A DNA stretch of 32,000 bases from Opitutales bacterium (GTDB lineage Bacteria; Verrucomicrobiota; Verrucomicrobiia; Opitutales; PNEW01). The translations under genes and the position numbers were made by a program. The stretch spans positions 120,001-152,000 of the forward strand of contig CBDCNV010000001.1 of assembly GCA_965219535.1 (NCBI GenBank), read 5' to 3'. Shown here in pieces: positions 3,897-31,750 of this stretch (position 1 is its first letter; the number at the start of each line of letters is the position of its first letter). The notes under the pieces are model-generated. The model had not been told where the DNA came from. It ran no database searches and worked only from the letters and a program-made list of their open reading frames with translations.

Positions 3897-4766
3897 TTAA
3901 TCCGCTACCCAATGATGAAAGAGAGGTTTCACATCGTCGGGTAGTTTTTCATAAACCTCGTGTTTCACGGGCGGACTATCAAAATTTTTCCCATTTGTCT
4001 CCACAATCATACGCGTATGATCCGGTGTGCCTATCATCGCGGGATTTAGATTAAACCACCAGGGAACATAGCGAATGATTAATGCAATACGTGGTTCATC
4101 GCTGTTATTTACTCCACCCGCGTGCCAGACACGGGGATCAAATAGAAGGACATCTCCTGGTTCGCCACTGATTTGCACTTCAGTTTTATGGGGAGCGTGA
4201 ATATCGATGCCATTAGCACCCTCGACCGAGGGGCCGTTGCCTATACGGTGACTTCCCGGAATAAAATAAGTGCCGCCCGTTACATCATTGAATGGCGTCA
4301 TCATCCAAATCGTTGTCATCCCCATCATAACGTCCGGATAGGGTGCGGTAATATGCATCGCATTGGATTGATTATAAGGCCAAGCATCATGCCAATAAAA
4401 ACGTTGGGTTTCCGGATCTTTTATAAGAACGGAGGTAAATACAATTCGCGCATACGGTCCCAGTAATGCTTCCGCGACACCGAGTACTTTTTCGTGTGAG
4501 AGATAGGGGGCGAAAACCTGGGTGTTATTAATTAAACCCTTGGCCTGATGTTCCCCTTGGATGCTCATTTTATGACCTTGTGCCCGGGTCTTTGCTTTTT
4601 CTTTTTCTATCTCCGCGAATGCTTCTTCACTTACATTTAAAACTTCCTCGCGAATCGCTTTGACCTTCTCCTCGGGGATTACGTCTTTCGCCACACAAAA
4701 GCCGCTCATCTTTATATCGCTGACGATATTATCGCGCGTCTGTTTATTTTCTTTCTCTTTCATCAT
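3897..4766 (-). CDS. Phytanoyl-CoA dioxygenase (PhyH) family Fe(II)/2-oxoglutarate oxygenase
   Basis: Contains 'YFIPGSHR' and 'VLLFDPRVWHAGGVNNSDEPRIALIIRY', the distal His...N.S...R block typical of PhyH-family proteins. 289 aa. Confidence 0.85.
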   Translation of the reverse strand: MMKEKENKQTRDNIVSDIKMSGFCVAKDVIPEEKVKAIREEVLNVSEEAFAEIEKEKAKTRAQGHKMSIQGEHQAKGLINNTQVFAPYLSHEKVLGVAEALLGPYARIVFTSVLIKDPETQRFYWHDAWPYNQSNAMHITAPYPDVMMGMTTIWMMTPFNDVTGGTYFIPGSHRIGNGPSVEGANGIDIHAPHKTEVQISGEPGDVLLFDPRVWHAGGVNNSDEPRIALIIRYVPWWFNLNPAMIGTPDHTRMIVETNGKNFDSPPVKHEVYEKLPDDVKPLFHHWVAD

Positions 4767-6055: not shown

Positions 6056-8110
6056 TCAGTTGATCGTAATCGTCACGCTTCGGCCCGGTCGTTCCAGGTT
6101 ACCGCTGTCGTCGACGGCTCGGCTCAAGATCGTGAAGGTTCCCGCCCGTGGCGGCAGCCACTGATAGTTCCAGGTCTCGCGTCCACTTGCCGGATGCCAA
6201 GTGACATTGTTATCGAGAGATACTTCGACTGCGGCGACTTGTCCGCCGCCTGTGTCCTGAGCGGTGCCACTGATCATCAAGGTGCTACGAGGCAGTGTCG
6301 CGCCTGAGCCGGGAACATGCACGGTCGAAGTTGGAGGTTCCTCGTCGGTGGACGCGATAGCCAGCGCAAGATCTTCTTGTAGCGTCGCTGGTTGCACACC
6401 CATGTCTGCAAACAGATTGATGGTCGCTTGTTGGATGTTCCTATCGGGACCGTTTGGATCGACACCCACCCGGGTCGAGTCGGGATTAGCACGCTCCGGC
6501 GGTACCCCGGTCTCGGTATCGTGGTGGGCATCCAAACCCCAACCCCACTGCACGGTGCCCGCGCCGAAGACCAAGGCACCGCTATTGTGACGATAAAGCG
6601 TCAGATGGTGGGTCGCGGTGCCCGAGTCATAAACCACGCCGTGGTCCTGAATGTAGGGAACGTTGTCGATGGTTGTCTCGGACAGGCGAAACAAACCGGG
6701 TGGGCGAAACCCGTTGTCGAGGTCCTCGTCCCACTCATGACCGAGCAGGCCCTTGAGCAAGACGGCTCTTTCGCCCGGCTCGAGATTGGCAACCTCCGTG
6801 TTGCGCCAGAACCGCAAGGCGGCGTATTCGGCGGGCACGATGAGTGGGTCGTTGCGCCATGCGTTCACCGTGAAAATGGTGCCGGTTAGGGCGTTTTCCG
6901 GCTGCGGGCCCTCCGGATTATAAGGTCGCGAGTCACGCCACGTCCCGGTCCAAACGTCGGCGACGGGGTCAGTCTTGGCGTTATCTCGCGTTTCCTTGTA
7001 GGTGACCAATGTTCGATGAGCGCTGCCGGAGGAGTCAATGCTTGGCTCCCAGCGGGTTTTCCAAAAAACTTCGTTGCCGCTGAAAAAGGCGAGGTGAACG
7101 CCCGCATCACGTGCCGCTTCGACATGTCGCCTTTGCTCAAGAGACCAGTATTCGTCGTGACCGACCGACAGAAACAGGCGGTGCTTGAGGATCTCTTCGC
7201 CGCGCCGATCGCTGTCGAGACCAGTGAAGTAGCTGACGTCGTAGCCATTGGCCTCAAGCCATCGGATGAAAGGATACTCGGCATTGAAAACCATGTTGAC
7301 GGCCCGGTAATGGCGGGTCTCGATCGGGCGGTTGTAGCTCACCTTGTAAGCGCGGGGCGGCCCGCCGTGTGCGCGTGGATTGTCGAGGTTAAGTCGGCCG
7401 TAGGTACAGTGGCCGCCATAGCGGTTGTAGGCCTGCCAGGTGGTATCCGAAGTTTGGAAGAGAATGTCAGAGCCGCCGTTGTCGTCCCGCACAACAAAAT
7501 AGATATGGCTTGCTCGCGGTTCGCGCAGCGCATTGGCAAGACGTCCATGTCCCAACGCTCCGTAGGCGTGTTGCGAGGCAGGTGGCCTCTCCGCCGGGCT
7601 TTCTCGACTATTGTCCGCACGCCAGCCCGCAGGGTCGGAATCCTGTCGTACCAGGCGCGCGAAATAGATTCCCGATGTGGTGTCTGACGGCGCTTGCCAG
7701 GAGGCCGAGACAGCCCAGTTGCCGCAATCGTAGAGGTGAGTGGCCGGGTCCGTCATACATTCCGGCTGAAGTTGGGGGAGAGAGATCGACGGCTTGATGG
7801 TGTCGACACGACGTGCGCCCAGCCCACCATAGAAACCCATTCGATAAATGTCGATCCGATAGTCGGTCGAGTCCGTTTTGATCTTGAAGAAGATCGTCTC
7901 ACCTTGATTGATGCTGATGTCGTGGCCGAAGCCTTGGATCGTCGGATCACCCCAGCCGTTAATATCCCACTCGGTTGCGGGATCGCCCGACAGGCAGTTT
8001 TCCAGGACTATGTTGTTAGCGGGTTGTGGGCCGCGATCTATCGGTTCTTGACTCATTTGTTCCCGTTCTAGTTTATGCCATGACAACGCGTGCCAAATGA
8101 CATTGTTCAT
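6056..8110 (-). CDS. N,N-dimethylformamidase large-subunit-like family protein with a C-terminal Ig-like domain; GC-rich, probably acquired
   Basis: The N-terminal region 'NIVLENCLSGDPATEWDI...IQGFGHDISINQGETIFFKIKTDSTDYRIDIYRMGFYGGLGARRV' matches the pattern I recall for DmfA2-like (DUF6605-type) proteins. A hand-counted line (6061-6120) is 62% GC. Many long alternative-frame ORFs on both strands are typical of high-GC coding DNA. The start could instead be the ATG at 8056 (M19). Confidence 0.7.
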   Translation of the reverse strand: MNNVIWHALSWHKLEREQMSQEPIDRGPQPANNIVLENCLSGDPATEWDINGWGDPTIQGFGHDISINQGETIFFKIKTDSTDYRIDIYRMGFYGGLGARRVDTIKPSISLPQLQPECMTDPATHLYDCGNWAVSASWQAPSDTTSGIYFARLVRQDSDPAGWRADNSRESPAERPPASQHAYGALGHGRLANALREPRASHIYFVVRDDNGGSDILFQTSDTTWQAYNRYGGHCTYGRLNLDNPRAHGGPPRAYKVSYNRPIETRHYRAVNMVFNAEYPFIRWLEANGYDVSYFTGLDSDRRGEEILKHRLFLSVGHDEYWSLEQRRHVEAARDAGVHLAFFSGNEVFWKTRWEPSIDSSGSAHRTLVTYKETRDNAKTDPVADVWTGTWRDSRPYNPEGPQPENALTGTIFTVNAWRNDPLIVPAEYAALRFWRNTEVANLEPGERAVLLKGLLGHEWDEDLDNGFRPPGLFRLSETTIDNVPYIQDHGVVYDSGTATHHLTLYRHNSGALVFGAGTVQWGWGLDAHHDTETGVPPERANPDSTRVGVDPNGPDRNIQQATINLFADMGVQPATLQEDLALAIASTDEEPPTSTVHVPGSGATLPRSTLMISGTAQDTGGGQVAAVEVSLDNNVTWHPASGRETWNYQWLPPRAGTFTILSRAVDDSGNLERPGRSVTITIN

Positions 8111-8526: not shown

Positions 8527-8607
8527 AGAGGATTACGAAGATGAGAATTATATTCGATATCCGTTAGGAACAATCTACAATCCGACATCCCCCAATCCGC
8601 AATCGTA

Positions 8608-11600
8608 TCATTCAATCGTGATCTCATCGATTGTCACGGTGATATCCTCTCCATCCTCATTTGCGAACGTTGCATTGATGCTCTGTGTCGGTTGAGGGGT
8701 GTTATCGGACTTGAAATTGTTCTGGGTGATCAGGGTCTCGAACCCGGGGGTCGTCGATCCACTCTCCGCTACGACGATCGATGCGACGTTTGACTGTGCC
8801 AGGTCTCCACCTGTTATCCGCAACCCGGGGTTGCCCGCCGGCACGGTGAATGATCCTGTGCCAAACAATAAGTGTGGTACCGCATCGCCGCTGGCATCGA
8901 TGTCGCCTACAGTTAAGCGTACCGCGATCGGCACTCCGCGCGCGTCAACGCCAACCTTGCCTGTGCTCCCGCCGAATACAGTGTTCGATAACTGCATCCC
9001 TCCTATGCCTGAAGAGTTAATCACTTCTACCAATGACACGTCCGCTTGCGCATCATAGACCTGTCCCTCGGGGAAGAGCGCCTGGTTCACCGCGTTGATC
9101 GATCCGACGGTGAAGATACTGAAAAAGGTATTCGAATTAGCTCCATCGATGACCACACTTGGTTTACCGGTGACGTACTCCACTGCCTGATTGTAGCGCG
9201 GAGGTATAGCCGGAGGCAGGAAAGTGGCTGGGTCCAAGGTTATGGTAAAAGTCCCTGTGCCTGAAAACTCTACCTGTACTATGTCCTCGGTTTCATCCAT
9301 GAAGGAGACTCGTGTGATCTGTTCTTCCTTTGCCTGAAACTGAATGAATTCACCGGTGAGCAGGACCTGATCAAACACGTTCCCGTTAGGGTGCGCAATG
9401 TTTTCTCCCGCCACATCACCCGAGCCATCGAGAATTAATTTGGCGACCGATGATAATATAACATTATGCCGTCCACCAGCAGTTATGGATGTAACGTTTA
9501 CAACCCCCGCGGGTGCTTCGGCCTGCCCGGAATCATTGAGCCCCCACCCGATCACTTCCCCCGCAGCATCGAGCGCCAGATTGTGGTTTAATCCAGCCGC
9601 GATGGAGGTTACCGCACTCGCATTGAAGGCCACCGTTATTTCGTTTTTCGCGCTCAGGCTTGCCTGGGGCTGGGCTGCGTTAAATGGAATATCCAATTGC
9701 CCAAATGTATTATCACCCCAGGCTACCGTAACACTATCCTCGGTCAGCGCCAGGCTGTGGTTATCTCCTGCTGAGATTGCTGTCACATTCGACAGATCGG
9801 CAGGTACATCCGTCTGGCCGGAGTCATTCAGACCCCAAGCGACGACAGAGCCATCATTTTTTAAGGCCAGGTTATGAAACCCACCGGCCGCCAATGCAAA
9901 GACATCGGTCAGGTCTCCAGGGGGTGTTGCCTGGCCATGGTCATTATTACCCCAGCCGATAACAGTACCATTCGACAATAGAGCGAGGCTATGACTTCTT
10001 CCGGCAGACACTTCGATCACATCGCTTAATCCTGCAGGTACATCCGTCTGGCCGTTATCATTGTTACCCCAGGCGACTACGGTGCCATCCGCTATCACGG
10101 CTAAATTATGATCATACCCCGCATCCACATCGGTAACATTTACCACTTCATCGGGTATAGTCGATTGTCCCGCTTGGTCCCTGCCCCATCCGACTACGCT
10201 GCCGTCATTTCTCAAACCGATATTATGGTCCAGCCCGGCCGACACCTCGATCAGTTCGGGCGCGCCCTCTCCGCGAATAGCTCCCGGCACGCCACCTTGA
10301 TCAAAATCATCAGCACCATAGCCGGCTGCCGTTACCCTCGTTTCAATTTCCTCCTCCACAGGGGGATCACCATTTCCTGTTTGCCCGCCAGGTTCCTTAA
10401 AGTAGAAGCTGTTGTAAGTGAGATTTTGAAGGTCATGGTATTGCAGATCCAGGTTTGTTACGTCAGCCCAGGGAATGCTCTCACTGCTAAGGTCAAGATT
10501 TGTGATATTGCTGAGTTGATCGTTTAGTACTCGCGAAAAAGTAGGACCGCTTTGCCGCGTTATCCGGAATTGGAATCCGTTAACGGGAAAGGTAGGGGAA
10601 ATTTCATCACCGGTTGAAGGATCTCTATAGGTCCAGGAAACACTCTGGATATTATTGTTACTGTCGAGCATCACGGTAGGAAGGATAACCAAGTGATAAT
10701 CTTCAGCCATGGAAGTATCAAAATCAGTTGTAACATCCATGCCTTTATAACTTACGCTATAAGTGCCACTTGGTGGGTAAGGAGGAATACTTACACTGGG
10801 TATACCATAAAAGTTAACATCTTCACCCGGACTAAAAAAAACAGCTGGACTATTGTTGTATTGGGAGCCGTTGGGTCCGCTGAAGAACACCTGGTTCGGA
10901 TCGGGAAGTTCGGTGTCCACCACGCTAAAGTTAAGAAAATAATTTAAATTGGCAGGAAAACCTAGATCCACACCTACTAAACTTCCAGTGCGTGCTGTGA
11001 AATCACCACCGGATTGAAAAATCATACTGATAGAGGTATCGGGTGCGCTCTCACCAGTAGTACGAAATACAAGATCGGTCGTTGCGTTGAATCCCGCAAG
11101 ACCGGTAACGATTTCGACCGGGTTGCCAACGGTGTAATCTGTATCATTGATGTCGACGATATTGATAAAATTCAAAACCACTATGTAATCCGTTCCCGGT
11201 TGCAAGGTGCCCGCAGGAATGGTGACCGAGGTCGCTGTATAATCTAAACTTCCGGATTCAGGTGGAAGCGGAGTCTCAAAAACTATATCTCCATCCATAT
11301 AAGTTTCGATTTCCATGAGGATAAAATCCCCTGCATTTCCATTGGCAAAGGCATCCCAAGTAAGAGTAAAATCCTGGCTGGGATCTACTGCTTGCGTCTC
11401 CGCCAAATTAGTAATTCGAGGATCGTTCGGAAACCTTACGCCGTTAACCGGATCGGCATTTAAATTTAAAGTAGCGGATATGCTGCCATCGTTAGTGGCA
11501 ATTATATTCATGATGTATGCGCCATCGGGGTAATTAGAATCGAGATCAATGATCGAATCAAAGATTTGCACAGATTCCCACTCACCTTCAGATTCTTGGA

Positions 11601-11826
11601 CCAATGACTGAGGACTGCCGCCCGGAGGCGTTACCGTAGCGCTGATAATGGAATCAGGGGTAGTTCCAAATACTGAAACTTCGAAACTGTATTTATCAGC
11701 GGCTCGTGCATCTTTGAATATTACGTACAATTCTGCATCCGCAGCTTTAAGATTCGCTTCAAATAAAAACAGTATGGTAATTATAAGAGCAAAGATATGA
11801 GAGAGCGGTATGCGTTTAATTTTCAT
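8608..11826 (-). CDS. Large secreted protein (1072 aa): signal peptide, N-terminal beta-rich region, six RCC1-like repeats, then the conserved 275-aa C-terminal module
   Basis: Signal peptide 'MKIKRIPLSHIFALIITILFLFEANLKA'. Repeated '[GA]WG.N..GQ...P' units (GWGRDQAGQSTIP, AWGNNDNGQTDVP, GWGNNDHGQATPP, AWGLNDSGQTDVP, AWGDNTFGQLDIP, GWGLNDSGQAEAP). The C-terminus is shared with 18390..20507. Confidence 0.85.
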   Translation of the reverse strand: MKIKRIPLSHIFALIITILFLFEANLKAADAELYVIFKDARAADKYSFEVSVFGTTPDSIISATVTPPGGSPQSLVQESEGEWESVQIFDSIIDLDSNYPDGAYIMNIIATNDGSISATLNLNADPVNGVRFPNDPRITNLAETQAVDPSQDFTLTWDAFANGNAGDFILMEIETYMDGDIVFETPLPPESGSLDYTATSVTIPAGTLQPGTDYIVVLNFINIVDINDTDYTVGNPVEIVTGLAGFNATTDLVFRTTGESAPDTSISMIFQSGGDFTARTGSLVGVDLGFPANLNYFLNFSVVDTELPDPNQVFFSGPNGSQYNNSPAVFFSPGEDVNFYGIPSVSIPPYPPSGTYSVSYKGMDVTTDFDTSMAEDYHLVILPTVMLDSNNNIQSVSWTYRDPSTGDEISPTFPVNGFQFRITRQSGPTFSRVLNDQLSNITNLDLSSESIPWADVTNLDLQYHDLQNLTYNSFYFKEPGGQTGNGDPPVEEEIETRVTAAGYGADDFDQGGVPGAIRGEGAPELIEVSAGLDHNIGLRNDGSVVGWGRDQAGQSTIPDEVVNVTDVDAGYDHNLAVIADGTVVAWGNNDNGQTDVPAGLSDVIEVSAGRSHSLALLSNGTVIGWGNNDHGQATPPGDLTDVFALAAGGFHNLALKNDGSVVAWGLNDSGQTDVPADLSNVTAISAGDNHSLALTEDSVTVAWGDNTFGQLDIPFNAAQPQASLSAKNEITVAFNASAVTSIAAGLNHNLALDAAGEVIGWGLNDSGQAEAPAGVVNVTSITAGGRHNVILSSVAKLILDGSGDVAGENIAHPNGNVFDQVLLTGEFIQFQAKEEQITRVSFMDETEDIVQVEFSGTGTFTITLDPATFLPPAIPPRYNQAVEYVTGKPSVVIDGANSNTFFSIFTVGSINAVNQALFPEGQVYDAQADVSLVEVINSSGIGGMQLSNTVFGGSTGKVGVDARGVPIAVRLTVGDIDASGDAVPHLLFGTGSFTVPAGNPGLRITGGDLAQSNVASIVVAESGSTTPGFETLITQNNFKSDNTPQPTQSINATFANEDGEDITVTIDEITIE
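8611..9438 (-). other. Conserved C-terminal module, copy 1 (aa 798-1072, ends ...ATFANEDGEDITVTIDEITIE)
   Basis: My ungapped hand alignment with aa 431-705 of the 18390..20507 product gives 164/275 identical residues. Confidence 0.8.
9439..10296 (-). other. RCC1-repeat (beta-propeller) region of the 1072-aa protein (aa ~511-796)
   Basis: Six units of ~50 aa, each with 'AG..H..AL..DG.V..WG.N..GQ'. Confidence 0.8.
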
Positions 11827-12030: not shown

Positions 12031-13620
12031 TCAGCTTACGCGCCTGAAACGCATAAAGAGGAAGAGACAACCCAATCCCATCAGCGCCCAGGTAGAGGGT
12101 TCGGGAACTACCTCCAGACTAAGGGAATTAGCGGCATAATGGGGATGAAAAAACAGGTTTCCGGAAAATCCGAATTCGTCGTCAATAGAACCAAATTCGC
12201 CAGACTTCAACCCCGTCCACGTGAGTACCTCAAAGCTCTGACCTAGTGTGGGGAATGTTTTCCCAAGCAATAGGATGTCCAGGTCGCCACTGCCAAAAGT
12301 CAGGTCTCCCATTATATTCAATTGGCCAAAGTCAATTCCGTCCACGATACTGATTTCTAACTTACTCCCCGCTTTAAATGTCAGGTCCCCTTCAATGTCT
12401 AAAGGGAAAACAGGATCGGGTGCGATCGTTCCAAAGTTTTCAATACTATCGATATCAAGAATCCCGTTTCCTTGAACCAGACCCAGATTAGTCAGGGTGA
12501 ACGCTTCTAATTCACTGATCAGTGATCCACTACCTGAAAGATTTAAAGTACCATTTAATCCTACCGTTACATCGTTAGTAACGATCACTTGACTACCCCC
12601 ATCGATACTCAATTGCCCCGTCCCCAGATTGGCTATAGCTAAATTGGATGCATTGATTGTCCCGCCCCCATTAACCGTTAAATTTGCATTATCCGAAGCT
12701 CCCAAGCTAAGTTGAATAGCGTTGTTTACGTCCAGTGTATTGCCAGCCATTCCAAAGGTTAGAGAATCGTTGGGAATATTTAGCCCGTCGACAGTCTGAC
12801 TAGTAACGAAGGAAACGAGATAATTGCTACCGGTCTGATTAAAATGGGCAATATCACCTGAACCGGGGGCGACACCGTCGACCCATTTAGTTCCATCGCC
12901 AAAATTTCCAGGGGCTGGACTAGCCCACAAAAAGGGAATATCGGTCAGCGCGGTTGAAATTTCGCTCGCTAGAAGCGGTCCATCCCAAATCCGGATTTCG
13001 TTAACGATACCCGCAGAAGCTTCTCCAAAACCCGTTGCAGAATCGTCCATAAAAAATGCAAATTGCGCGAATCCACTGTTGTCGAAGGCTATGGCTTGGC
13101 TGGTTGAATCAACAAAGGAGTACTCCGGTGTGGAGGAACCGTTCAGGTAAGCGGTATAAATATTATCAAGTGAGGAGCGAGTGAACACCACATTTATAAA
13201 TTCATCAGCTTGAATAATGCCCGATCCACCATTAGTGGGTGCGAAAAAACGTATATTATTGCTCCTTATATATTGACCTGAATCTGGGATGCGGTTTTTG
13301 AAATCAACAATTTTTTCCCAATCGCTTACTTCCTCAAAACTAAACTGAATCCCAATCGAATAATTATCTGCCAGGCTTAATGCGGTATCAAGAAACACGC
13401 CTTGGTTTGCGCCAAATGAGTAGCTGTTACTATTTATCGTCCCCCCATTATCGGTTAATACCGTACTGCTTAAACTGTCACTAAGATTGTTATCAAATTC
13501 AAATAAATGAACCAAGGTAACAGCTTGCACTCCACTCCATGCCAATGTGCTTATTAATAGTCCGCATCCAATTTTTTTTAGCTTATTTAAAGACATGGCG
13601 AAACAGTGAAATACATTCAT
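12031..13620 (-). CDS. PEP-CTERM-anchored secreted protein with an N-terminal LamG/concanavalin-like region and an autotransporter-like beta-helical repeat region
   Basis: C-terminus 'VVPEPSTWALMGLGCLFLFMRFRRVS' has the PEP motif, a TM helix and a basic tail. N-terminal signal 'KKIGCGLLISTLAWSGVQA'. 'NEIRIWDGPLLASEI' is typical of the end of a LamG-type domain. Repetitive 'GGGTINASNLAIANLGTGQLSIDGGSQVIV...LNLSGSGSL'. The start may instead be M9. Confidence 0.85.
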   Translation of the reverse strand: MNVFHCFAMSLNKLKKIGCGLLISTLAWSGVQAVTLVHLFEFDNNLSDSLSSTVLTDNGGTINSNSYSFGANQGVFLDTALSLADNYSIGIQFSFEEVSDWEKIVDFKNRIPDSGQYIRSNNIRFFAPTNGGSGIIQADEFINVVFTRSSLDNIYTAYLNGSSTPEYSFVDSTSQAIAFDNSGFAQFAFFMDDSATGFGEASAGIVNEIRIWDGPLLASEISTALTDIPFLWASPAPGNFGDGTKWVDGVAPGSGDIAHFNQTGSNYLVSFVTSQTVDGLNIPNDSLTFGMAGNTLDVNNAIQLSLGASDNANLTVNGGGTINASNLAIANLGTGQLSIDGGSQVIVTNDVTVGLNGTLNLSGSGSLISELEAFTLTNLGLVQGNGILDIDSIENFGTIAPDPVFPLDIEGDLTFKAGSKLEISIVDGIDFGQLNIMGDLTFGSGDLDILLLGKTFPTLGQSFEVLTWTGLKSGEFGSIDDEFGFSGNLFFHPHYAANSLSLEVVPEPSTWALMGLGCLFLFMRFRRVS

Positions 13621-13821: not shown

Positions 13822-15054
13822 CTAAGGCTTATTCTCTTGTTGCTGGCTCAGCCAAAGCTCAGCCCCGCGTACGGATTCAGCAACTTGCGCTTCAGACATA
13901 TTCTCCTGCAGCAAGTTTAAGATTTCTTTAAATTCTGTCATACCTCCCGCGATAGCGAGGCTTATCCATTTGTAAGCTTCAATAAAATCGCGCTCCACCC
14001 CCTGGCCGTCAGCATACATCACTCCAAGGTTGTGTTGGGCTCCGGCGACTCCCCGTTCCGCTGCTTCGCGAAACCACTTGACGGCCTCTCCATAATCCTG
14101 AGTTACTCCCTCACCATCGCGATACATTACCCCAAGATTGTATTGGGCCTCTGTCATACCTTGTGCGGCCGCTTTGCGATACCAAGTTAAGGCTTCGGTA
14201 TAATCCTGAGTGACTTCCTCGCCCGTGTAATACATCGTCCCAAGGTTGTATTGGCTATCGGCGTGGCCCTGTTCGGCCGCTTTGCGATACCATGTCACCG
14301 CCTCGCTGTAATCCTGGGTTACCCCTTGAACATTATGATACATCCACCCAAGGTTGGATTGAGCTCCTGCGTCTCCCTGTTCGGCCGCTTTGCGATACCA
14401 CTTGAAAGCCTCATCATAAGACTGAGTAACCCCCAAGCCCTCTCTGTAGATCTCCCCGAGAGCAGTTTGGCCTTTGGCATTTCCCTGGTCCGCCGCTTTG
14501 CGAATCCAGGTTAAGGCTTCATCATAATCCTGGGTTATCCCCTGGCCCGCTGCGTAGATTACGCCGAGGGCAGTTTGGGCTTTGGCATCTCCCTGGTCTG
14601 CAGCCTTGCGATACCATGTGGTGGCTTCGGTGTAATCCTGCTCGACCCCTTGTCCTTTTTCATACATCGCTCCCAGTCTGTTTTGAGCTCGCATCGATCC
14701 CTGTTCTGCTGCCTTGCGTGTCCATGTGACAGCCGCGTTGTAATCCTGCTCTGCCCCTAGACCCTTTTCATACATCACCCCAAGGACGTATTGGGCTTTG
14801 ATGTAACCTTGTTCTGCGGCTTGGCGAATCCATTTTAAAGCTTCGCCAAAATCCTGAGTTACCCCCTCGCCAGCGTAATACCTCCCCCCGAGGTAATATT
14901 GCGCTTTAGCTTCACCCGTTTCTGCGCGCGTTATGATATCTGCTAATCGTTCATTCTCTACACCGACTACAGCAGAGGGCAGAATTAAGAACGCAATTAT
15001 TGAGCGCCAATATTTCACCCCTGTAAATAATTTAGCTATTTTTTCAGGCATCAT
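13822..15054 (-). CDS. Sel1-like repeat (SLR/TPR-like) protein with an N-terminal signal/anchor and nine 36-aa repeats
   Basis: Nine tandem units of the form 'AQ..LG.MY..G.GV.QDY.EA..WYRKAAEQG'. Hydrophobic N-terminus 'YWRSIIAFLILPSAVVG'. Confidence 0.9.
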   Translation of the reverse strand: MMPEKIAKLFTGVKYWRSIIAFLILPSAVVGVENERLADIITRAETGEAKAQYYLGGRYYAGEGVTQDFGEALKWIRQAAEQGYIKAQYVLGVMYEKGLGAEQDYNAAVTWTRKAAEQGSMRAQNRLGAMYEKGQGVEQDYTEATTWYRKAADQGDAKAQTALGVIYAAGQGITQDYDEALTWIRKAADQGNAKGQTALGEIYREGLGVTQSYDEAFKWYRKAAEQGDAGAQSNLGWMYHNVQGVTQDYSEAVTWYRKAAEQGHADSQYNLGTMYYTGEEVTQDYTEALTWYRKAAAQGMTEAQYNLGVMYRDGEGVTQDYGEAVKWFREAAERGVAGAQHNLGVMYADGQGVERDFIEAYKWISLAIAGGMTEFKEILNLLQENMSEAQVAESVRGAELWLSQQQENKP

Positions 15055-18232: not shown

Positions 18233-18298
18233 TTACTCGATCGTCACTTCTTCAGTCAGCACTGTTACCTCTGCATCATCCTCGTTGATGAAGATTGC
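18233..18298 (-). pseudogene. Orphan 3'-terminal relic (21 codons plus stop) of a third gene carrying the conserved C-terminal module
   Basis: The reverse-strand translation 'AIFINEDDAEVTVLTEEVTIE*' aligns with 'ATFANEDGEDITVTIDEITIE*' (11/21 identical, and the same terminal 'TIE-stop'). The frame is closed three codons further upstream by a stop at 18305..18307. Confidence 0.7.
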
Positions 18299-18325
18299 GG
18301 GCGCTTACGCGCGTGTTATGTTTTA

Positions 18326-18379
18326 AGTTTTAGGTGTTAAGCAATTTTATCTAAAACCTAACACTTAACACCTAAAACT
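18326..18379 (-). terminator. Perfect 16-bp-stem hairpin directly downstream of the 18390..20507 gene (candidate terminator)
   Basis: 'agttttaggtgttaag' (18326..18341) and 'cttaacacctaaaact' (18364..18379) are exact reverse complements separated by a 22-nt loop. The hairpin begins 10 nt after the stop codon. The U-tract on the minus strand is weak (ttaaaac). Confidence 0.45.
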
Positions 18380-18389
18380 GATCGTTAGA

Positions 18390-20507
18390 TCATTCAATCG
18401 TGATCTCATCAGTCGCCACGTTGACGTCATCACCGTCTTCGTTGGCAAAAGTGGCAATTATGCTTTGTGTTGGCTGAAGTTCCCCATCCGACTTAACATT
18501 GTTCTGAGAAGTTAACATTTCAAATCCAGGGTTTGAAGACTCACCCTGGGCAATAACAATAGAGGCACCATTACTCTGCAGAAGATCACCTCCAGTAATT
18601 CTTAAGCCGGGGATTGGCGCATCCACCGTGAAAGAATTATCTCCAAACAATAGATGTGGTACCGCATCACCACGGGCATTGATATCTCCAATCAATACGC
18701 GAACAGAAATTGAAACTCCCGGTGCTTTTAAACCCACGTCACCTGAGGATGCACTAAAGTGTGTATTCGCGCAGAGAATTCCCCCAAATTCTGATGAATT
18801 AGTAATTTCTAATAGCGCTATGTCCGCTATCGCGTCGTAAGTCTCACCACCGGGGAACAAAGCTTGATTTATTGCATTAGCTCTACCCACGGTAAATATA
18901 CTCAAGAAAGTACTAGCGTCAGCCTCCTCTACTTTAATTCTGGCACTCCCCTTTACATAATTGATATCCTGATTGTATTTCTTTGGCCGGTTGGGAAGCT
19001 CATAAGAACTCGGATCTATAATGATCGTTAGCTTCCCCGCTCCAAAAAATTCTACTTGTACAATATCATCGTCTTCGTCGATAAAAGACACCCTGGATAT
19101 TTGCTCTGGGTCTGCTATTAATTCAACGCTTGGTCCAGTTAATAATACCTGGTCAATCACATTGCCATTGGGATGCTCTATATTTGACCCGACTTGTGAT
19201 CCGTTTCCCTGCAATAGAACATTTTCGTCGGAGTCTGGATCATCGGAATCGACAACTCCATCGCCATCTGTGTCTTTCACACGGATATCGCTTATTTCGC
19301 TTTCATTCTCGTCTCTATTATCATTGTCATCTATGTTGTCTTCTTTATCGAGTATTTCATCGCTGTCTGAAACCACAAATGCAAACTCCCCGTCCAGCCC
19401 AATTAAAGCTGCATATTCGTTATCACCAATGATGAGATTGAAGCGTATAGGATTGGCCGTCTCAGACAGATCGATTCCCCAAGCCTCGACAATAAATTTG
19501 AACGACTCATCATCTCGCTCTAATAATTCAAAAAATATCCCGGCACCATTTAATTCTCCTTCAAAAGCGAAATATCCAGGTTCCACCTCCGTAAATGCAC
19601 CCGCGGGAATCTCAATAACCGAGGTCCCGAATGCAACCCTCACTCCATCATTAATCGGATCAATTCCGTCATTTGTCGCGCCTTGGAGAATTTTACCACT
19701 GACCGCGTATCCATCAACAATAGATGGGAAAGATTCATATCTAATCTCCAGGTCATTGATTGTAAATATCGATACTGGAAAATTATCATCCTCATTCTCG
19801 TGAACTTCGTCGTCAAATTCATCAAAGTCATGGCCATCTTCTTCAAATTCATTTTCCTCTTCGTGAAAGTACTCCTCGTCCTCCCACGCGAAGTCGCCCT
19901 CTTCATCAATGTCGTTGTCTCCTGTAAAGCCATCATCGTTGTCGCTTAACTCAAAATGCAGCTCATCATCTATACGAATCATTGCTTCTCCCTCATCATT
20001 GCCTATCCTGATCGCAATTGTTATAGGATTGAGCGTACCTGTCAGATCAACTCCCTCGGCTCTTACTTCAGCTACATAGATTTCATCATCTCGTTCTATT
20101 AGTTCAAAAATAATTCCACCACCATTTATTTCTTCCTCAACCACATAATATCCAGGTTCCACCTCTGTAAACGAGCCCGGTGGAAGTTCTATAACAAAGG
20201 CACCGACTGATAATCTCAGATCTTCATTAACCGGGTCAATTCCTTCACTTGTTATATTAACTGAAAATTCGCCCCTGAACTCAAAGGCATCATTAACGAC
20301 AGGGAATGATTCAAAAATAATTACAGCTCTTGTAATTGTGAATTCTTGAAAAAGATCCCCTTTTACAAGCAAGGGAGTTACTAAACACGATAATGTTAAT
20401 AACAATTGGCGAACAAACAGCGATTCAGCAAATGACTGCCAAAGAACGAAGTTAGTAAGATACCGGCGTGAATTAATTTCAGATTTTTGATTATTTAAAG
20501 CTTTCAT
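18390..20507 (-). CDS. Secreted, highly acidic protein (705 aa): internally duplicated ~135-aa domain x2, D/E-rich linkers, a Ca-binding-like 'DTDGDGVVDSDDPDSDE' segment, then the conserved 275-aa C-terminal module
   Basis: Hydrophobic signal-like segment 'LLLTLSCLVTPLLV'. Repeat 1 (aa 56-189) and repeat 2 (aa 246-383) share 'ESFP...GIDP.N...R...G..VIE.P.G.FTEVEPGY......NG.GI.FEL.ERDDE'. The C-terminus is shared with 8608..11826. Confidence 0.8.
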   Translation of the reverse strand: MKALNNQKSEINSRRYLTNFVLWQSFAESLFVRQLLLTLSCLVTPLLVKGDLFQEFTITRAVIIFESFPVVNDAFEFRGEFSVNITSEGIDPVNEDLRLSVGAFVIELPPGSFTEVEPGYYVVEEEINGGGIIFELIERDDEIYVAEVRAEGVDLTGTLNPITIAIRIGNDEGEAMIRIDDELHFELSDNDDGFTGDNDIDEEGDFAWEDEEYFHEEENEFEEDGHDFDEFDDEVHENEDDNFPVSIFTINDLEIRYESFPSIVDGYAVSGKILQGATNDGIDPINDGVRVAFGTSVIEIPAGAFTEVEPGYFAFEGELNGAGIFFELLERDDESFKFIVEAWGIDLSETANPIRFNLIIGDNEYAALIGLDGEFAFVVSDSDEILDKEDNIDDNDNRDENESEISDIRVKDTDGDGVVDSDDPDSDENVLLQGNGSQVGSNIEHPNGNVIDQVLLTGPSVELIADPEQISRVSFIDEDDDIVQVEFFGAGKLTIIIDPSSYELPNRPKKYNQDINYVKGSARIKVEEADASTFLSIFTVGRANAINQALFPGGETYDAIADIALLEITNSSEFGGILCANTHFSASSGDVGLKAPGVSISVRVLIGDINARGDAVPHLLFGDNSFTVDAPIPGLRITGGDLLQSNGASIVIAQGESSNPGFEMLTSQNNVKSDGELQPTQSIIATFANEDGDDVNVATDEITIE
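18393..19220 (-). other. Conserved C-terminal module, copy 2 (aa 431-705, ends ...ATFANEDGDDVNVATDEITIE)
   Basis: See copy 1. In addition, a 22-nt run spanning the stop codon is identical in both genes ('atcattcaatcgtgatctcatc' at 8607..8628 and 18389..18410). Confidence 0.8.
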
Positions 20508-26110: not shown

Positions 26111-28039
26111 TTATGGCGTAGGACGAAAGCGAAAAGAATAGAGGTCCGCGTCTTTGCAAACAAAACGTAAACGGACGGGTTGTCCTGACAGTTTGCCAAG
26201 ACTGGAAGAATCCAACCAGTTTACCTTGCGCTCGATGGAGTCGCCGAATACAGCGTGACAATCCGCCAAAGTAAATCCTTCTATCGGTTTACCCGATTCA
26301 TTCTGTATTTCGACCTGAACGCCACCCGCTGCGGAGCTCGAGAAATTGATGACCATCTCGTCGCCATCGAAAACAAGCGGCTTGGTAACCAGTTCACCGC
26401 CGCTGAGAGGAGCGTTGACCGAAACGAATCCATCGATGCGCATCGTGTAGCGGCGGAGTTGACTGCTGGTGCCAGTCCAGTAACCTTCGGTTGCATAGAG
26501 CGACAACTCGTTCGGAGCGTCTTCATATTTAGATTTTGTTTCGACCAGTTGCCAGGCAATGAACTGGTTACCATAGGCCCAACTGTGCTTTCGCTCGATA
26601 CCCGGTCGCAGAAACGCATCATCCCATCGTTTGAAAGTATGTCCGTCTCGGCTGGTCATGAACAAGGCTTCGGTGACCGCAGTGCCGAAACGGGGTTCCA
26701 ACTTATCGTGACCTTCGTAAACAACAAGCTCTGGATCAGAGCCGGCTCGTTGAAGGCGCTCGGATAATTCCGGCAGCGCACGTGTTGAATCCGACCATCC
26801 ACGGTTGATATAGCGGGTAGGAAAGCCAATGAGAATATGCGGCGCTCGGTAATACGGTTTGATTTGGTTGGTGTATAAATGATCGGGCCGCGCGCCAGGG
26901 TATTTTAGACGGATGGGATCGACCCAGTTCACAAAGTCACTCGAGGTCATTGTCATAATATCGCGGCGATCATCCGGCCAGGAACGAAAGTAGAGGCGGT
27001 AAAGTCCATTGGCAGAATCCCAAAATGCCAGGTTTTGCGAATCGAAATAAATACTTTTTACGGTTGGTTCAAAGATCTTCATTTCGCTTTCTGAAATGAT
27101 CTTTTTGTCACTCATTGCTGTCCAATGAATGCCGTCAGCCGACTTGAATACCCTTAATCCTTCAAAATCACCGGACACACGAATAGCTTTGTAACGTGCA
27201 TCCGGTGGTGCTTCAGGGTTTGTGTCTTTAAACACCGCGGAATGTACGGCGTCGACAGCATTGAGTAAAATCGGACCTAACACCTTCCCGTTAGGACCTT
27301 GCATCTCTTTTACGGCAGTACCGTCCAAATCTTCAATAACCGGAGTGACGGGGGGAGCTGTAACAGTGATGATCGAAGTATCACTGTTAATATAAACTCC
27401 AGCTTTTGTTGTTATCTGGACCCAGAAGTTTGTGCTCTCATTTAGAGGGCCGGTATTCAAGGTGTTGCTGGTTGCACCTGCGATGGGCTTAGAAGTGTCA
27501 CCAGGTTTGCCGATATACCATTGATATTTCAGATCGTCACCTTTTACTTCAATGGAAATAACTACCGCGGTACCGGACTGCACTTCCCTGTCAGTCTGGT
27601 TGTCGGCCCACATGATATTATTTTTCTTTGATCCGTTGAAATCAATGAGTCCCAGTTCGGGTTTTCGCCAGTGAATACCGTCGTCACTTTCGGCGTAACA
27701 GTAGTATAGCGGGTGCGTCCAGTCGAGATTACCTTCGGTGGTAGTATACTGGCTCGCCTTGTAATACAAACGAAAGAGATCGCCATCTTTAAAGATACTG
27801 TGATAGTTAGTGGCATTGCCTTCCCAGGGTTCATCATGGACAATTGCCACATCCTGCGGAGTGGGATGGTGTAAAGTCTGCCGGGCCCCGCCGGACAACT
27901 CGTCGATCAGATAATCATCGACAAAAAGCTCCCAACGCGAACCAATGTCGATCGGCTCCTGAGAATGGTTGGAAATGTCAGCACAAGCGAGAAGGAGTAC
28001 TATTGATATTAAAATAAATACTGTTGATAATAATTTCAT
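26111..28039 (-). CDS. Lipoprotein with a putative beta-propeller glycoside-hydrolase-like fold and an inserted Ig-like domain
   Basis: Lipobox 'VLLLAC' (Cys19). 'YYCYAESDDGIHWRKPELGLIDFNGSKKNNIMW' and later 'SADGIHWT' resemble GH32/43/sialidase-like propeller proteins of PVC and Bacteroidota. An Ig-like segment 'KYQWYIGKPGDTSKPIAGATSNTLNTGPL' lies between them. The function is unverified. Confidence 0.6.
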   Translation of the reverse strand: MKLLSTVFILISIVLLLACADISNHSQEPIDIGSRWELFVDDYLIDELSGGARQTLHHPTPQDVAIVHDEPWEGNATNYHSIFKDGDLFRLYYKASQYTTTEGNLDWTHPLYYCYAESDDGIHWRKPELGLIDFNGSKKNNIMWADNQTDREVQSGTAVVISIEVKGDDLKYQWYIGKPGDTSKPIAGATSNTLNTGPLNESTNFWVQITTKAGVYINSDTSIITVTAPPVTPVIEDLDGTAVKEMQGPNGKVLGPILLNAVDAVHSAVFKDTNPEAPPDARYKAIRVSGDFEGLRVFKSADGIHWTAMSDKKIISESEMKIFEPTVKSIYFDSQNLAFWDSANGLYRLYFRSWPDDRRDIMTMTSSDFVNWVDPIRLKYPGARPDHLYTNQIKPYYRAPHILIGFPTRYINRGWSDSTRALPELSERLQRAGSDPELVVYEGHDKLEPRFGTAVTEALFMTSRDGHTFKRWDDAFLRPGIERKHSWAYGNQFIAWQLVETKSKYEDAPNELSLYATEGYWTGTSSQLRRYTMRIDGFVSVNAPLSGGELVTKPLVFDGDEMVINFSSSAAGGVQVEIQNESGKPIEGFTLADCHAVFGDSIERKVNWLDSSSLGKLSGQPVRLRFVCKDADLYSFRFRPTP

Positions 28040-29507: not shown

Positions 29508-29584
<77 letters not shown>

Positions 29585-30976: not shown

Positions 30977-31750
30977 ATGACTGAACACGAACGGTATCTC
31001 TTTGATTTACGCGGCTATATTGTTATCCCCGACGCATTAACCCCTGAACAGATTACAGATCTGAACGCTCTTATGGACGAACAGGTTGAAAAAGAATGTG
31101 AGCCGGATGAGAGATTGCACCGCTTTGTTCACCTTTTGCACTGGGGACAAGCTTGTCGCAGCCTGATCGACAACCCGGTTATCGTCCCGTATTTAGTCGA
31201 GCTGCTGGGCGAACAGTTTCGCCTCGACCATGATTACGCGGAGATAATCAGAACAGGTTCAGGGAATCTCCCGAGAACGTTTCATGGCGGTGCCCATCCC
31301 TTCAACCCCGTTATGTATTATAACTATCATTCGGGGAGCATGTATAATGGACTGACTGTCGTCGCTTTTAATTTAAAAGATATACACCCCGGTGACGGTG
31401 GATTTGGTTGTGTACCCGGAAGCCATAAAAGCAATCTTTCGTTTCCGGAGGATTGGCGCGATATTAATAAAGCTCCTTCAATTATCGAAAAGATCACGGG
31501 GCAGGCAGGGACTGCGATCATTTTCACTGAAGCGCTCACTCACGGGACATTACCCTGGCTCGGGAAAGATGACCGGCGGACAATATTTTATAAATACAGT
31601 CCACACACCCTCTCATGGGCAGCACAATATTATGATGCTGATGATTATACCGATTTGACGGAACGGCAACGGGAGATTCTCGAGGCGCCCAATGCACGCT
31701 ATAAGGAGAGGAAAGAGTTTTACCTGAACTATCCCAATAAAAAGCAATAG
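30977..31750 (+). CDS. PhyH-family Fe(II)/2-oxoglutarate dioxygenase
   Basis: 'YLFDLRGYIVIPDAL', 'GFGCVPGSHKSN' and 'IIFTEALTHGTLPW...RRTIFYKY' are typical PhyH-family blocks. 257 aa. Confidence 0.85.
   Translation: MTEHERYLFDLRGYIVIPDALTPEQITDLNALMDEQVEKECEPDERLHRFVHLLHWGQACRSLIDNPVIVPYLVELLGEQFRLDHDYAEIIRTGSGNLPRTFHGGAHPFNPVMYYNYHSGSMYNGLTVVAFNLKDIHPGDGGFGCVPGSHKSNLSFPEDWRDINKAPSIIEKITGQAGTAIIFTEALTHGTLPWLGKDDRRTIFYKYSPHTLSWAAQYYDADDYTDLTERQREILEAPNARYKERKEFYLNYPNKKQ

What the first reader, a model, noticed from the sequence alone, without database searches (positions are those of the whole stretch)
8608..9438. Unassigned 275-aa C-terminal module with an invariant '...DEITIE' end, shared by two unrelated secreted proteins (second copy 18393..19220)
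The last 275 residues of the RCC1 protein and of the acidic duplicated-domain protein align without any gap. By my hand count 164/275 residues are identical (~60%). Highly conserved blocks include 'HPNGNV.DQVLLTG', 'RVSF.DE.DDIVQVEF', 'F.SIFTVG..NA.NQALFP', 'GDAVPHLLFG', 'PGLRITGGDL.QSN.ASIV' and 'QPTQSI.ATFANEDG.D'. Both proteins end in 'DEITIE' directly at the stop. The N-terminal parts are unrelated. A 22-nt run across the stop codon is identical in the two genes. A strictly C-terminal, constant-length module on variable passenger regions is how sorting, anchoring and export domains behave (PEP-CTERM, T9SS CTD, LPXTG, S-layer anchors). This one is about three times longer than those and has no TM helix. 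I cannot place it in a named family, so it may define an undescribed surface-display or secretion-recognition system in a PEP-CTERM-bearing lineage.
Basis: partly seen in the sequence, partly recalled or inferred. Interest (0 to 1): 0.8.

Follow-up and report, generated by a model that had tools for sequence, protein, structure and literature searches.

The report
Unannotated constant domain on secreted proteins
Two unrelated secreted proteins in this window share a ~276-residue C-terminal domain from a large, unannotated family with no detectable structural relative, which marine Opitutales bacteria attach to 50 or more secreted proteins per genome, most likely as a common surface-docking module and not as a cleavable sorting signal.

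Summary
Two minus-strand genes (8608..11826, 1072 aa; 18390..20507, 705 aa) share a gapless 276-aa C-terminal module (164/276 identical, E=2e-100) on unrelated N-terminal parts.

The module matches nothing in Pfam, NCBIfam or PDB sequences. It folds confidently (pLDDT 94, all-beta) and has no Foldseek neighbour in PDB or BFVD.

It is not confined to this window. There are 708 clusters in a 1.84-billion-protein library, and at least 51 copies in each of two Opitutales genomes. In those genomes, hypervariable heads with a carbohydrate-binding-module (CBM)-like fold sit on a constant module held by purifying selection.

- Only 76% of family representatives carry the module C-terminally; 16% have it N-terminal and 8% internal.
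- The '…TIE' end is lineage-specific.
- The last ~55 residues are the least conserved part.
- The 22-nt identity is not a conserved DNA signal.
- No processing gene is linked.

Cargo is heterogeneous (proteases, beta-propellers, Ig-like and CBM-like domains). My best reading is a non-cleaved docking or retention domain with a conserved polar binding site (confidence ~0.4). The main rival is an autonomous ligand-binding or catalytic domain.

A side finding is orphan 21-codon 'tail' cassettes behind a structured spacer downstream of some family genes, including the window's second gene.

The parts
8608..11826 (-). Gene 1: 1072-aa secreted protein = signal peptide + ~490 aa unassigned + RCC1 beta-propeller + module
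   Evidence: ORF and translation. Pfam finds RCC1_2, WD40_RLD and RCC1 only in aa ~519-770. The ortholog L001 is 96% identical in the module.
11743..11826 (-). Predicted Sec signal peptide of gene 1 (MKIKRIPLSHIFALIITILFLFEANLKA|AD)
   Evidence: Read directly from the translation: a basic n-region, a hydrophobic core and an AxA-like site. This is an inference; no predictor was run.
9517..10272 (-). RCC1-like beta-propeller repeats of gene 1 (aa 519-770)
   Evidence: Pfam PF13540 E=3.5e-56, PF25390 E=2.1e-51, PF00415 E=5.9e-12.
8611..9438 (-). Module copy 1 (aa 797-1072 of gene 1); stop codon at 8608-8610
   Evidence: Gapless 276-aa alignment to copy 2. AF2 model has pLDDT 94.1 and pTM 0.91. 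708 related clusters.
18390..20507 (-). Gene 2: 705-aa acidic protein with a duplicated N-terminal domain + acidic linker + module
   Evidence: ORF and translation. No Pfam or NCBIfam hit. Orthologs P0143 and P0279 lie in syntenic loci L079 and L080.
18393..19220 (-). Module copy 2 (aa 430-705 of gene 2); stop codon at 18390-18392
18299..18389 (-). Structured spacer element directly after the gene 2 stop: heptamer-repeat hairpin (18326..18379) plus GCGC-GUAA-GCGC mini-hairpin inside the conserved box ACACGCGCGTAAGCGC (18301..18316)
   Evidence: RNA fold -32.9 kcal/mol, z=-5.4, 0 of 200 shuffles as stable. The same right half and box abut orphan tails in L006, L011, L012 and L026 (twice). No Rfam match. 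Not a canonical terminator. Unrelated to module coding sequence.
18233..18298 (-). Orphan 'tail cassette': 21 codons homologous to module residues 256-276 (AIFINEDDAEVTVLTEEVTIE) plus a TAA stop, with no upstream ORF
   Evidence: tblastn hit, sequence, systematic survey. Conserved in the same-species loci L079 and L080.
27263..27589 (-). Segment inside an otherwise unrelated 642-aa protein (aa 151-259) homologous to the PF19081 Ig-like domain plus the first ~27 residues of the module
   Evidence: BLASTP to family member L002: 54/109 identical, E=7e-27, running across the Ig-to-module junction. Pfam Ig_7 hit.

Best explanation
The module is an autonomously folding, soluble, acidic all-beta extracytoplasmic domain of ~250-276 residues. 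It defines a large unannotated family. I propose that it is a shared, non-cleaved docking or retention domain. Proteins carrying it are exported by Sec. The constant module then binds one common envelope component, either a glycan or a protein receptor, through a conserved polar and possibly Ca2+-dependent site. This would tether very different 'heads' to the cell surface or to a common scaffold. The heads include tandem CBM-like jelly rolls, RCC1, NHL and FG-GAP propellers, subtilases, and LRR and Ig arrays. What is shown: the existence of the domain, its fold confidence, its lack of relatives, its distribution, its positional statistics, its cargo diversity and purifying selection. What is inferred: surface location, the existence of a common ligand, and retention as the function.
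For: (1) Extracytoplasmic context. Signal peptides are readable in both window proteins and in the paralogs, and the partner domains are typical of secreted or surface proteins. (2) Terminal placement in 92% of representatives: 101 C-terminal and 21 directly after the signal peptide, of 133. From my own knowledge, this is how non-covalent anchoring and docking modules such as SLH and dockerin behave. (3) At least 51 distinct copies in each of two Opitutales genomes. Heads are hypervariable (pairwise identity 0.2-0.6, with indels) and the module is constant (~0.9). Within the module, codon positions 1+2 are 93% identical and position 3 is 57% identical. This indicates purifying selection, as expected if all copies must fit one partner, and not recent gene conversion. 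(4) Cargo heterogeneity argues for an accessory role. The dominant heads are tandem CBM-like jelly rolls (Foldseek hit to 4xup CBM22-1/-2 at E=1.8e-8, 83 hits at E<1e-3). Other members carry Peptidase_S8 (6 of 48), trypsin-like+PPC, beta-lactamase-type hydrolase, propellers and LRR. (5) An Ig-like spacer lies directly upstream of the module in about half of members (24 of 48). This includes PF19081, 'Ig-like domain CHU_C associated', giving a head-spacer-terminal-module order like that of surface-anchored proteins. (6) Conserved polar residues (H16, D23, Q24, R43, D48, D52, Q55, E57, Y82, Q84, Y88, N118, Y128, D129, D133, N152, Q215, N217) persist across 118 modules down to 32% identity, consistent with one conserved ligand site.
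Against: There is no localisation or binding data, and no candidate receptor. No neighbour gene is conserved. A stand-alone signal-peptide+module protein (P0099, 302 aa) is conserved in several genomes, which fits an autonomous activity better than a pure tether. So many invariant polar residues would also suit an enzyme or a substrate-binding site. In 8% of representatives the module is internal. The 'choice-of-anchor' test was uninformative: the dominant head was never found with an alternative known anchor. The taxonomy of the divergent subfamily could not be established.
Confidence: 0.4

Rival explanations
1. The module is itself the functional part: an autonomous ligand-binding domain (for example glycan-binding) or a catalytic domain of a new family. 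The variable N-terminal domains would then target it or add to it.
For: There are many invariant polar residues of types typical of active or binding sites (H, D, E, R, Y, Q, N). At ~250-276 aa it has the size of a catalytic domain. A stand-alone secreted version is conserved. The best structural match for the dominant head is the N-terminal CBM22 tandem of a xylanase, where the tandem precedes a catalytic domain. The genomic surroundings are rich in sulfatases and glycoside hydrolases.
Against: The module is fused to proteins that already carry unrelated catalytic domains (subtilases, trypsin-like protease, beta-lactamase-type hydrolase) and to purely adhesin-like arrays. More than 50 near-identical copies of one enzyme per genome, differing only in their heads, would be unusual. 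It has no similarity to any CAZyme or CBM fold, although Foldseek readily found CBM folds for the head.
Confidence: 0.3
2. One reading: a dedicated C-terminal secretion or sorting domain, recognised and possibly removed by specific outer-membrane export or processing machinery. This would be a verrucomicrobial counterpart of the T9SS CTD or of a T5SS translocator.
For: 76% of representatives are strictly C-terminal. The cargo spectrum (proteases, propellers, Ig arrays, CBM-like binders) resembles T9SS and PEP-CTERM cargo. There are dozens of carriers per genome. A PF19081 Ig-like spacer precedes the module as it precedes CHU_C sorting domains in Bacteroidota (the comparison rests on the Pfam family description and my own knowledge). 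The terminal segment is an amphipathic beta-strand (ITVTIDEITIE).
Against: 24% of representatives have the module N-terminal or internal, with unrelated domains after it. The extreme C-terminus is the least conserved part and differs between subfamilies (TIE vs VNP, PGP and others). No linked machinery gene was found. There is no hydrophobic, barrel-like or TM character and no fold similarity to CTDs or barrels. A stand-alone form exists.
Confidence: 0.13
3. The module is a self-associating domain for oligomerisation or lattice formation. It would assemble carriers into a coat or multimer and display variable heads outward.
For: A constant module with variable heads in >50 paralogs. Strong purifying selection over the whole domain surface. 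A terminal amphipathic strand that could take part in beta-augmentation.
Against: There is no direct evidence, and no multimer modelling was possible with the tools. There is no resemblance to known S-layer or trimerisation folds. The occurrence of the module in single-copy, enzyme-bearing proteins of distant lineages does not call for a lattice.
Confidence: 0.07

Closest known systems
Non-covalent terminal anchoring/docking modules (SLH domains, type I dockerins)
   Same: A discrete, folded, constant module attached to many different secreted proteins of one organism. It is usually at a terminus but can sit at either end. It is not cleaved. There are many carriers per genome and no need for an adjacent processing gene.
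   Different: No sequence or fold similarity. The module is 3-5 times larger. The organism is diderm, and no cohesin-like or cell-wall polymer partner is known. Binding has not been shown.
T9SS C-terminal domains (type A/B CTD, e.g. CHU_C) of Bacteroidota
   Same: C-terminal bias, a heterogeneous cargo set, dozens of carriers per genome, and a PF19081-type Ig-like spacer directly upstream.
   Different: From my own knowledge, CTDs are ~70-100 aa Ig-like sandwiches, strictly C-terminal, and cleaved. Here the module is 276 aa, has no fold or HMM match, is N-terminal or internal in 24% of representatives, and has a poorly conserved end.
PEP-CTERM/exosortase and related short C-terminal sorting signals
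   Same: Found in the same lineage: a PEP-CTERM protein lies between the two genes at 12031..13620. There are many carriers with varied passengers.
   Different: Those signals are short tripartite tags consisting of a motif, a TM helix and a basic cluster (abstracts listed: PMC1569441, PMC11980579). The module has no TM segment and no such motif.
Type V secretion translocator domains (classical and inverse autotransporters)
   Same: A terminal domain of ~270 aa on variable passengers. In T5SS the domain is C-terminal in Va and N-terminal in Ve, which echoes the two positional classes seen here.
   Different: The module is not a membrane beta-barrel. It is acidic and soluble, has no aromatic C-terminal residue, no Pfam autotransporter hit and no Foldseek barrel hit.
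Carbohydrate-binding modules (CBMs)
   Same: A modular, beta-rich, extracellular accessory domain that can be N-terminal, C-terminal or stand-alone. The organism degrades polysaccharides.
   Different: No CBM fold or sequence match for the module, although the heads of the dominant family are themselves CBM-like. Partners are mostly not glycoside hydrolases.

Membership tests
Any Pfam-A / NCBIfam family | Significant HMM match to the module region | tested here: not met
   hmmscan at E<=1 returned only RCC1 families for protein 1 and nothing for protein 2. Divergent members likewise have no hit over the module.
Any solved structure (PDB) or viral predicted structure (BFVD) | Sequence-profile or fold similarity | tested here: not met
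   The profile search against PDB sequences gave 0 hits at E<=10. Foldseek with the pLDDT-94 model gave best E=1.4 and TM<=0.11 in PDB, and best E=0.8 and TM<=0.18 in BFVD. AlphaFold DB was not available.
PEP-CTERM / exosortase-type sorting signals | Short C-terminal tag: signature motif + hydrophobic TM helix + basic cluster | tested here: not met
   No PEP-like motif and no TM or basic tail in any of ~280 family proteins. The longest hydrophobic run in the module is 5 residues. The Pfam PEP-CTERM model hits the neighbouring gene at 12031..13620 but neither of these two.
PEP-CTERM / exosortase-type sorting signals | Strictly C-terminal position | tested here: not met
   32 of 133 representatives have the module N-terminal or internal.
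T9SS C-terminal domain | ~70-100-aa Ig-like beta-sandwich matching the CTD HMMs (own knowledge) | tested here: not met
   The module is 276 aa, with no Pfam or NCBIfam CTD hit and no fold match.
T9SS C-terminal domain | Presence of T9SS machinery (PorK/L/M/N, SprA, PorU/V) in the genome | not testable with these tools
   Whole genomes could not be scanned. Nothing of the kind occurs in the window.
Autotransporter (T5SS) translocator | 12-16-stranded outer-membrane beta-barrel with an aromatic C-terminal residue | tested here: not met
   The domain is acidic and soluble (pI 4.05) and ends in Glu. No barrel hit by Foldseek and no Pfam autotransporter hit.
Dockerin / SLH-type non-covalent anchors | Sequence membership (Pfam dockerin or SLH HMMs) | tested here: not met
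   No hit. The resemblance is in behaviour only.
Dockerin / SLH-type non-covalent anchors | Binding to a defined partner (cohesin or cell-wall polymer) | not testable with these tools
   Requires experiments. No conserved neighbour suggests a partner.
Carbohydrate-binding module | CBM fold or family match, and usual attachment to carbohydrate-active catalytic domains | tested here: not met
   No fold match for the module, while the head of the same proteins matches CBM22 and CBM32-type folds. Partners are mostly Ig domains, propellers and proteases.
Diversity-generating or cassette-switching system (for the orphan tails) | Linked reverse transcriptase or recombinase, and a template repeat nearly identical to the expressed region | tested here: not met
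   No such gene lies near 18233..18389. The orphan tail is only ~52% identical to the expressed tail. Same-species loci show no switching.

The most novel reading that the evidence does not exclude
The module is the docking element of an undescribed surface-display system centred on Verrucomicrobiota. A novel-fold ~270-aa domain would tether more than 50 different Sec-exported proteins per cell to one common envelope receptor. The cargo would include a hypervariable repertoire of CBM-like glycan binders as well as proteases and beta-propeller proteins. The system would be functionally analogous to cohesin-dockerin or to T9SS-CTD anchoring but evolutionarily unrelated. The orphan 21-codon tail cassettes behind a conserved structured spacer would record, or perhaps enable, replacement of the module's last beta-strands.
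Probability: 0.25. Interest if true: 0.8.

Novelty: new variant of a known kind. Interest (0 to 1): 0.6.

Why it matters
Marine Verrucomicrobiota are important degraders of sulfated algal polysaccharides. They lack the SusC/D-type surface machinery of Bacteroidota, and how they display glycan-binding proteins and enzymes on the cell is poorly understood. A constant domain carried by more than 1% of the genes in some Opitutales genomes, fused to hypervariable CBM-like heads, is a strong candidate for that missing display or organising principle. At minimum it is a large domain family (708 clusters at 50% identity) that curated libraries have not captured and that has no structural relative in the PDB. 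Defining it would improve the annotation of thousands of 'hypothetical' secreted proteins. It would also give a concrete handle, as a fusion tag or pull-down bait, for finding its partner.

Tried and rejected
1. Known-family assignment. Pfam, NCBIfam, a PDB sequence profile, Foldseek against PDB and Foldseek against BFVD were all negative.

2. A third full copy in the window. There is none, only an orphan tail and an Ig+module-start fragment.

3. The 22-nt identity as a conserved DNA or RNA signal. Rejected: synonymous sites of the last 7 codons are below the module average across 68 copies. A local micro-conversion remains possible (my rough estimate is p~0.02 by chance) but could not be tested, because the orthologous loci are near-identical.

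4. Recent gene conversion as the cause of module constancy. Rejected by the contrast between codon positions.

5. A linked processing or export gene. No neighbour is conserved.

6. The 230-aa ORFs as silent cassettes. Rejected: they are copies with single nonsense or frameshift lesions, or with non-ATG starts. Many short database hits also reflect a hit-length cap of ~1.75x the query in the search for homologous proteins.

7. The 'choice-of-anchor' test. The dominant head was never found with another anchor, so the test is uninformative.

8. The spacer element as decayed module coding sequence. Rejected. As a known RNA family: no Rfam match. As an intrinsic terminator: not by the consensus scan.

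9. Internal duplication within the module. None found by hhalign.

10. Carriage on plasmids or phages. None.

11. Literature. Three full-text searches found no description of the domain or of the expanded family.

12. Taxonomy of the divergent '...QIVVNP' subfamily. It could not be established, because the sources carry no names.
Full report
**Observation.** The two genes are on the minus strand: 8608..11826 (1072 aa) and 18390..20507 (705 aa).
- BLASTP aligns their last 276 residues without a gap: 164/276 identical, 204/276 similar, E=2e-100. The next-best HSP has E=0.6, so the N-terminal parts are unrelated.
- Both proteins end ...DEITIE followed by TGA. The 22-nt run GATGAGATCACGATTGAATGAT is identical in both genes.
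- The module is acidic (pI ~4.05) with 0-1 Cys, no Trp and no hydrophobic run longer than 5 residues.
- Codon positions 1, 2 and 3 are 69%, 78% and 29% identical between the two copies. Synonymous sites are saturated, so the similarity is maintained by selection on the protein.

**What the module is.**
- It has no match in Pfam or NCBIfam at E<=1 and none to any PDB sequence with a 45-sequence profile.
- AlphaFold2 with that alignment gives a very confident all-beta model: pLDDT 94.1, pTM 0.91, about 20 strands, beginning with a hairpin of two 14-residue strands.
- Foldseek finds nothing in the PDB (best E=1.4, TM<=0.11) or in BFVD (best E=0.8).
- This is not a blind spot for beta folds. The same tool gave 83 hits at E<1e-3 for the head domain of a family member.
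- There is no internal duplication.
- AlphaFold DB could not be searched. 'Novel fold' therefore means no relative in the PDB or BFVD by Foldseek.

**Distribution.**
- A search of 1.84 billion representative proteins finds 708 clusters at E<=1e-3 and 345 at E<=1e-30.
- In one-genome-per-species contigs, 206 stretches encode a relative. The best 80 all come from two Opitutales MAGs: OY829953.1, a 4.49-Mb chromosome, and CBDANS01. Each holds at least 51 distinct copies.
- L001 is the ortholog of the window's RCC1 gene, 96% identical in the module. L080 is a near-identical syntenic copy of the second gene's locus. The window therefore comes from a marine Opitutales.
- This fits its gene content of sulfatase, GH31, PhyH, Sel1 and PEP-CTERM genes.
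- No copy is found on plasmids or phages.

**Architecture of the family.** In those genomes the dominant protein is ~740 aa. It consists of a Sec signal peptide (...ALPQDLEVFTDFE...), ~370 variable residues, a PF19081 Ig-like domain and the module. It always ends [DE][EV]xTIE, with nothing after the module.
- Among 54 paralogs, pairwise identity is 0.2-0.6 with indels in the head, ~0.75 in the Ig domain and ~0.9 in the module.
- Within the module, positions 1+2 are 93% identical and position 3 is 57% identical. Constancy therefore reflects purifying selection and not recent conversion.
- A model of a complete member (P0291) shows a confidently predicted head (pLDDT >90). Its best PDB matches are the CBM22-1/CBM22-2 tandem of Xyn10C (E=1.8e-8), reelin repeats, MAM domains and Vip3 and EngBF CBM domains. 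The heads are tandem CBM-like jelly rolls.

In 48 divergent representatives the partner domains are:
- Ig_3/I-set in 24
- Peptidase_S8 in 6
- He_PIG, CARDB, fn3 and PKD domains
- NHL, RCC1, SBBP and FG-GAP propellers
- a trypsin-like protease with PPC

Elsewhere the module is found with LRR, beta-lactamase+Golvesin_C, CHRD+DUF1800 and TonB_C domains.

- *Position.* Of 133 representative clusters with a near-complete module, 101 (76%) are C-terminal, 21 (16%) lie directly after the signal peptide and 11 (8%) are internal, followed by unrelated domains.
- *The terminus.* Only 15 of the 101 C-terminal representatives end in TIE. A large subfamily ends ...NG.DVT.QIVVNP.
- *Conservation.* Across 118 modules (32-88% identity to copy 1), positions conserved at >=90% lie between residues 5 and 217, plus S244. 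Many are polar: H16, D23, Q24, R43, D48, D52, Q55, E57, Y82, Q84, Y88, N118, Y128, D129, D133, N152, Q215, N217. The last ~55 residues are the least conserved.
- *The 22-nt run.* Synonymous sites of the last 7 codons are less conserved than the module average across 68 copies (0.44 vs 0.556). The run is not a nucleotide-level signal.
- *Linked genes.* No neighbour is conserved. The best non-family cluster occurs in 16 of 73 loci, and an IS-type transposase sits directly downstream in 14.
- *Stand-alone form.* A signal-peptide+module protein (P0099, 302 aa) is conserved in several genomes.
- *Short ORFs.* The many 230-aa ORFs are copies with single nonsense or frameshift lesions, or with non-ATG starts. 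The absence of long proteins reflects a hit-length cap of ~1.75x the query.

**Interpretation.** The behaviour is that of an accessory terminal domain shared by a heterogeneous set of exported proteins. Five points lead me to favour a non-cleaved docking or retention domain that binds one common envelope component through a conserved polar site (confidence ~0.4):
1. Fusion to proteins that already have catalytic domains, and to purely adhesin-like arrays.
2. The head-Ig spacer-module order.
3. A terminal position in 92% of representatives.
4. More than 50 carriers per genome.
5. Strong constraint on the module beside diversifying heads.

The steps from 'constant accessory domain' to 'surface retention' are inferred, not shown.

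The rivals are as follows:
- *Autonomous ligand-binding or catalytic domain (~0.3).* It is supported by the invariant polar residues, the conserved stand-alone form and the CBM-tandem-then-catalytic-domain analogy.
- *Self-association or coat-forming role (~0.07).* It cannot be excluded.

**Membership.** The module fails every tested defining feature of PEP-CTERM-type tags, T9SS CTDs, autotransporter barrels, dockerin and SLH domains, and CBMs. It therefore works like an anchoring or docking module at most by analogy. It should be treated as a new domain family.

**An unexplained side finding bearing on the C-terminus.** Directly after the stop of gene 2 lies a ~91-nt structured spacer (18299..18389).
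- It contains a 17-bp hairpin built from GT[GT]TTA[AG]-type heptamers and the box ACACGCGCGTAAGCGC, which includes a GCGC-GUAA-GCGC mini-hairpin. The fold energy is -32.9 kcal/mol, z=-5.4.
- It is followed at once by an orphan copy of the module's last 21 codons plus a stop (18233..18298, AIFINEDDAEVTVLTEEVTIE*).
- The same unit, with the junction at the same module codon (~256), follows family genes in L006, L011 and L012, and occurs twice in tandem in L026. In total there are 7 junction-associated orphan tails against ~102 complete tails. All keep an intact frame and a stop.
- The spacer is unrelated to module coding sequence. It matches no Rfam family and is not a canonical terminator.
- The arrangement is conserved in same-species loci, which are too similar to test selection.
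- It looks like displacement of a 3' end by an incoming [tail + stop + spacer] unit. This is reminiscent of orphan 3' modules in polymorphic-toxin loci, but neither the mechanism nor any function is established.

**A third trace in the window.** Residues 151-259 of an unrelated 642-aa protein (27263..27589, minus strand) are 50% identical (E=7e-27) to the Ig domain plus the first ~27 module residues of a family member. This shows that pieces of this architecture recombine into other genes.

**Verdict.** The finding is real and more substantial than a two-gene curiosity. It is a large, unannotated domain family without structural relatives, greatly expanded in some marine Opitutales on hypervariable CBM-like heads. 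The specific claims of strict C-terminality, an invariant end and a sorting-signal nature are only partly borne out.

Noticed in passing
window 18233..18389 (-); also L006 ~6829..6985, L012 ~9335..9510, L026 ~6829..7145 (two tandem units), L011 (- strand): Downstream of some module genes there are one or two units of [~90-nt structured spacer ending in ACACGCGCxTAAGCGC] + [orphan 21-codon module tail + stop]. The junction always falls at module codon ~256, and all orphans keep an intact frame. It looks like 3'-end displacement. The mechanism is unknown.
   Followed up: partly
window 8558..8607 (-) and the 120 nt after the stop codons in 74 family loci: Two recurrent motif types follow the stop codons of family genes. 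Type A is (GTGATC)TATCGATCAGT[GT]TTAGGTGTTAAGT heptamer repeats, found in 28 of 74. Type B is CGATTGCGGAT...GTCGGATTG, found in 17 of 74; gene 1 has type B. The same boxes also occur elsewhere in these genomes (152 and 222 hits in 1.8 Mb of both strands), so they appear to be a dispersed REP/MITE-like repeat family.
   Followed up: partly
window 27263..27589 (-), inside the 642-aa ORF 26111..28039: An otherwise unrelated protein contains a segment 50% identical (E=7e-27) to the PF19081 Ig-like domain plus the first ~27 residues of the module of the ~740-aa family. This is an inserted fragment spanning the Ig-to-module junction.
   Followed up: partly
L001 6984..8174 (-) and 13 other family loci: An IS-type transposase (HTH + rve-like; 'MMSWKETKKMDQRYQFALEAM...') sits directly downstream of module genes in 14 of 73 loci, including the ortholog of the window's gene 1. 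The window itself has a DMFA2_C-like gene there instead. The downstream repeat elements may be its insertion target.
   Followed up: no
window 12031..13620 (-): A 529-aa PEP-CTERM protein (PF07589, E=1.1e-5) with a weak LamG-like match lies between the two module genes. The lineage therefore uses PEP-CTERM in parallel, and none of ~280 module proteins carries such a tail.
   Followed up: partly
window 13822..15054 (-) and 8608..11826 (-): Eukaryote-like repeat proteins sit side by side: a 410-aa protein with 9 Sel1 repeats (E=2.4e-98) and the RCC1 propeller protein. The related genomes are ENA MAGs of unknown host or habitat.
   Followed up: no
window 3897..4766 (-), 29912..30757 (+), 30977..31750 (+); also L073/L074: Three PhyH-family (phytanoyl-CoA dioxygenase-like) genes lie in 32 kb, recurring next to sulfatase genes in related loci. 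This looks like a lineage-specific expansion, possibly tied to sulfated-glycan metabolism.
   Followed up: no
window 29508..29581 (+): A single tRNA gene (Rfam RF00005, 62.6 bits) is the only Rfam match at gathering threshold in the window.
   Followed up: no
P0054, P0060, P0063, P0071, P0072, P0082, P0100, P0112, P0153, P0154, P0197: A recurrent small architecture: signal peptide + module + an unassigned ~145-aa C-terminal domain ending ...G[TS]F[EKR][EQ][LV]. Other sets end ...GQW[QR] or ...PLALPSGG. These are further unannotated domains that pair with the module when it is N-terminal.
   Followed up: no
tool behaviour: the search for homologous proteins returned no hit longer than ~1.75x the query (482 aa for a 276-aa query, 651 aa for 372 aa). 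Domain queries therefore preferentially recover fragments and short proteins, and full-length carriers appeared only in the representative search.
   Followed up: yes
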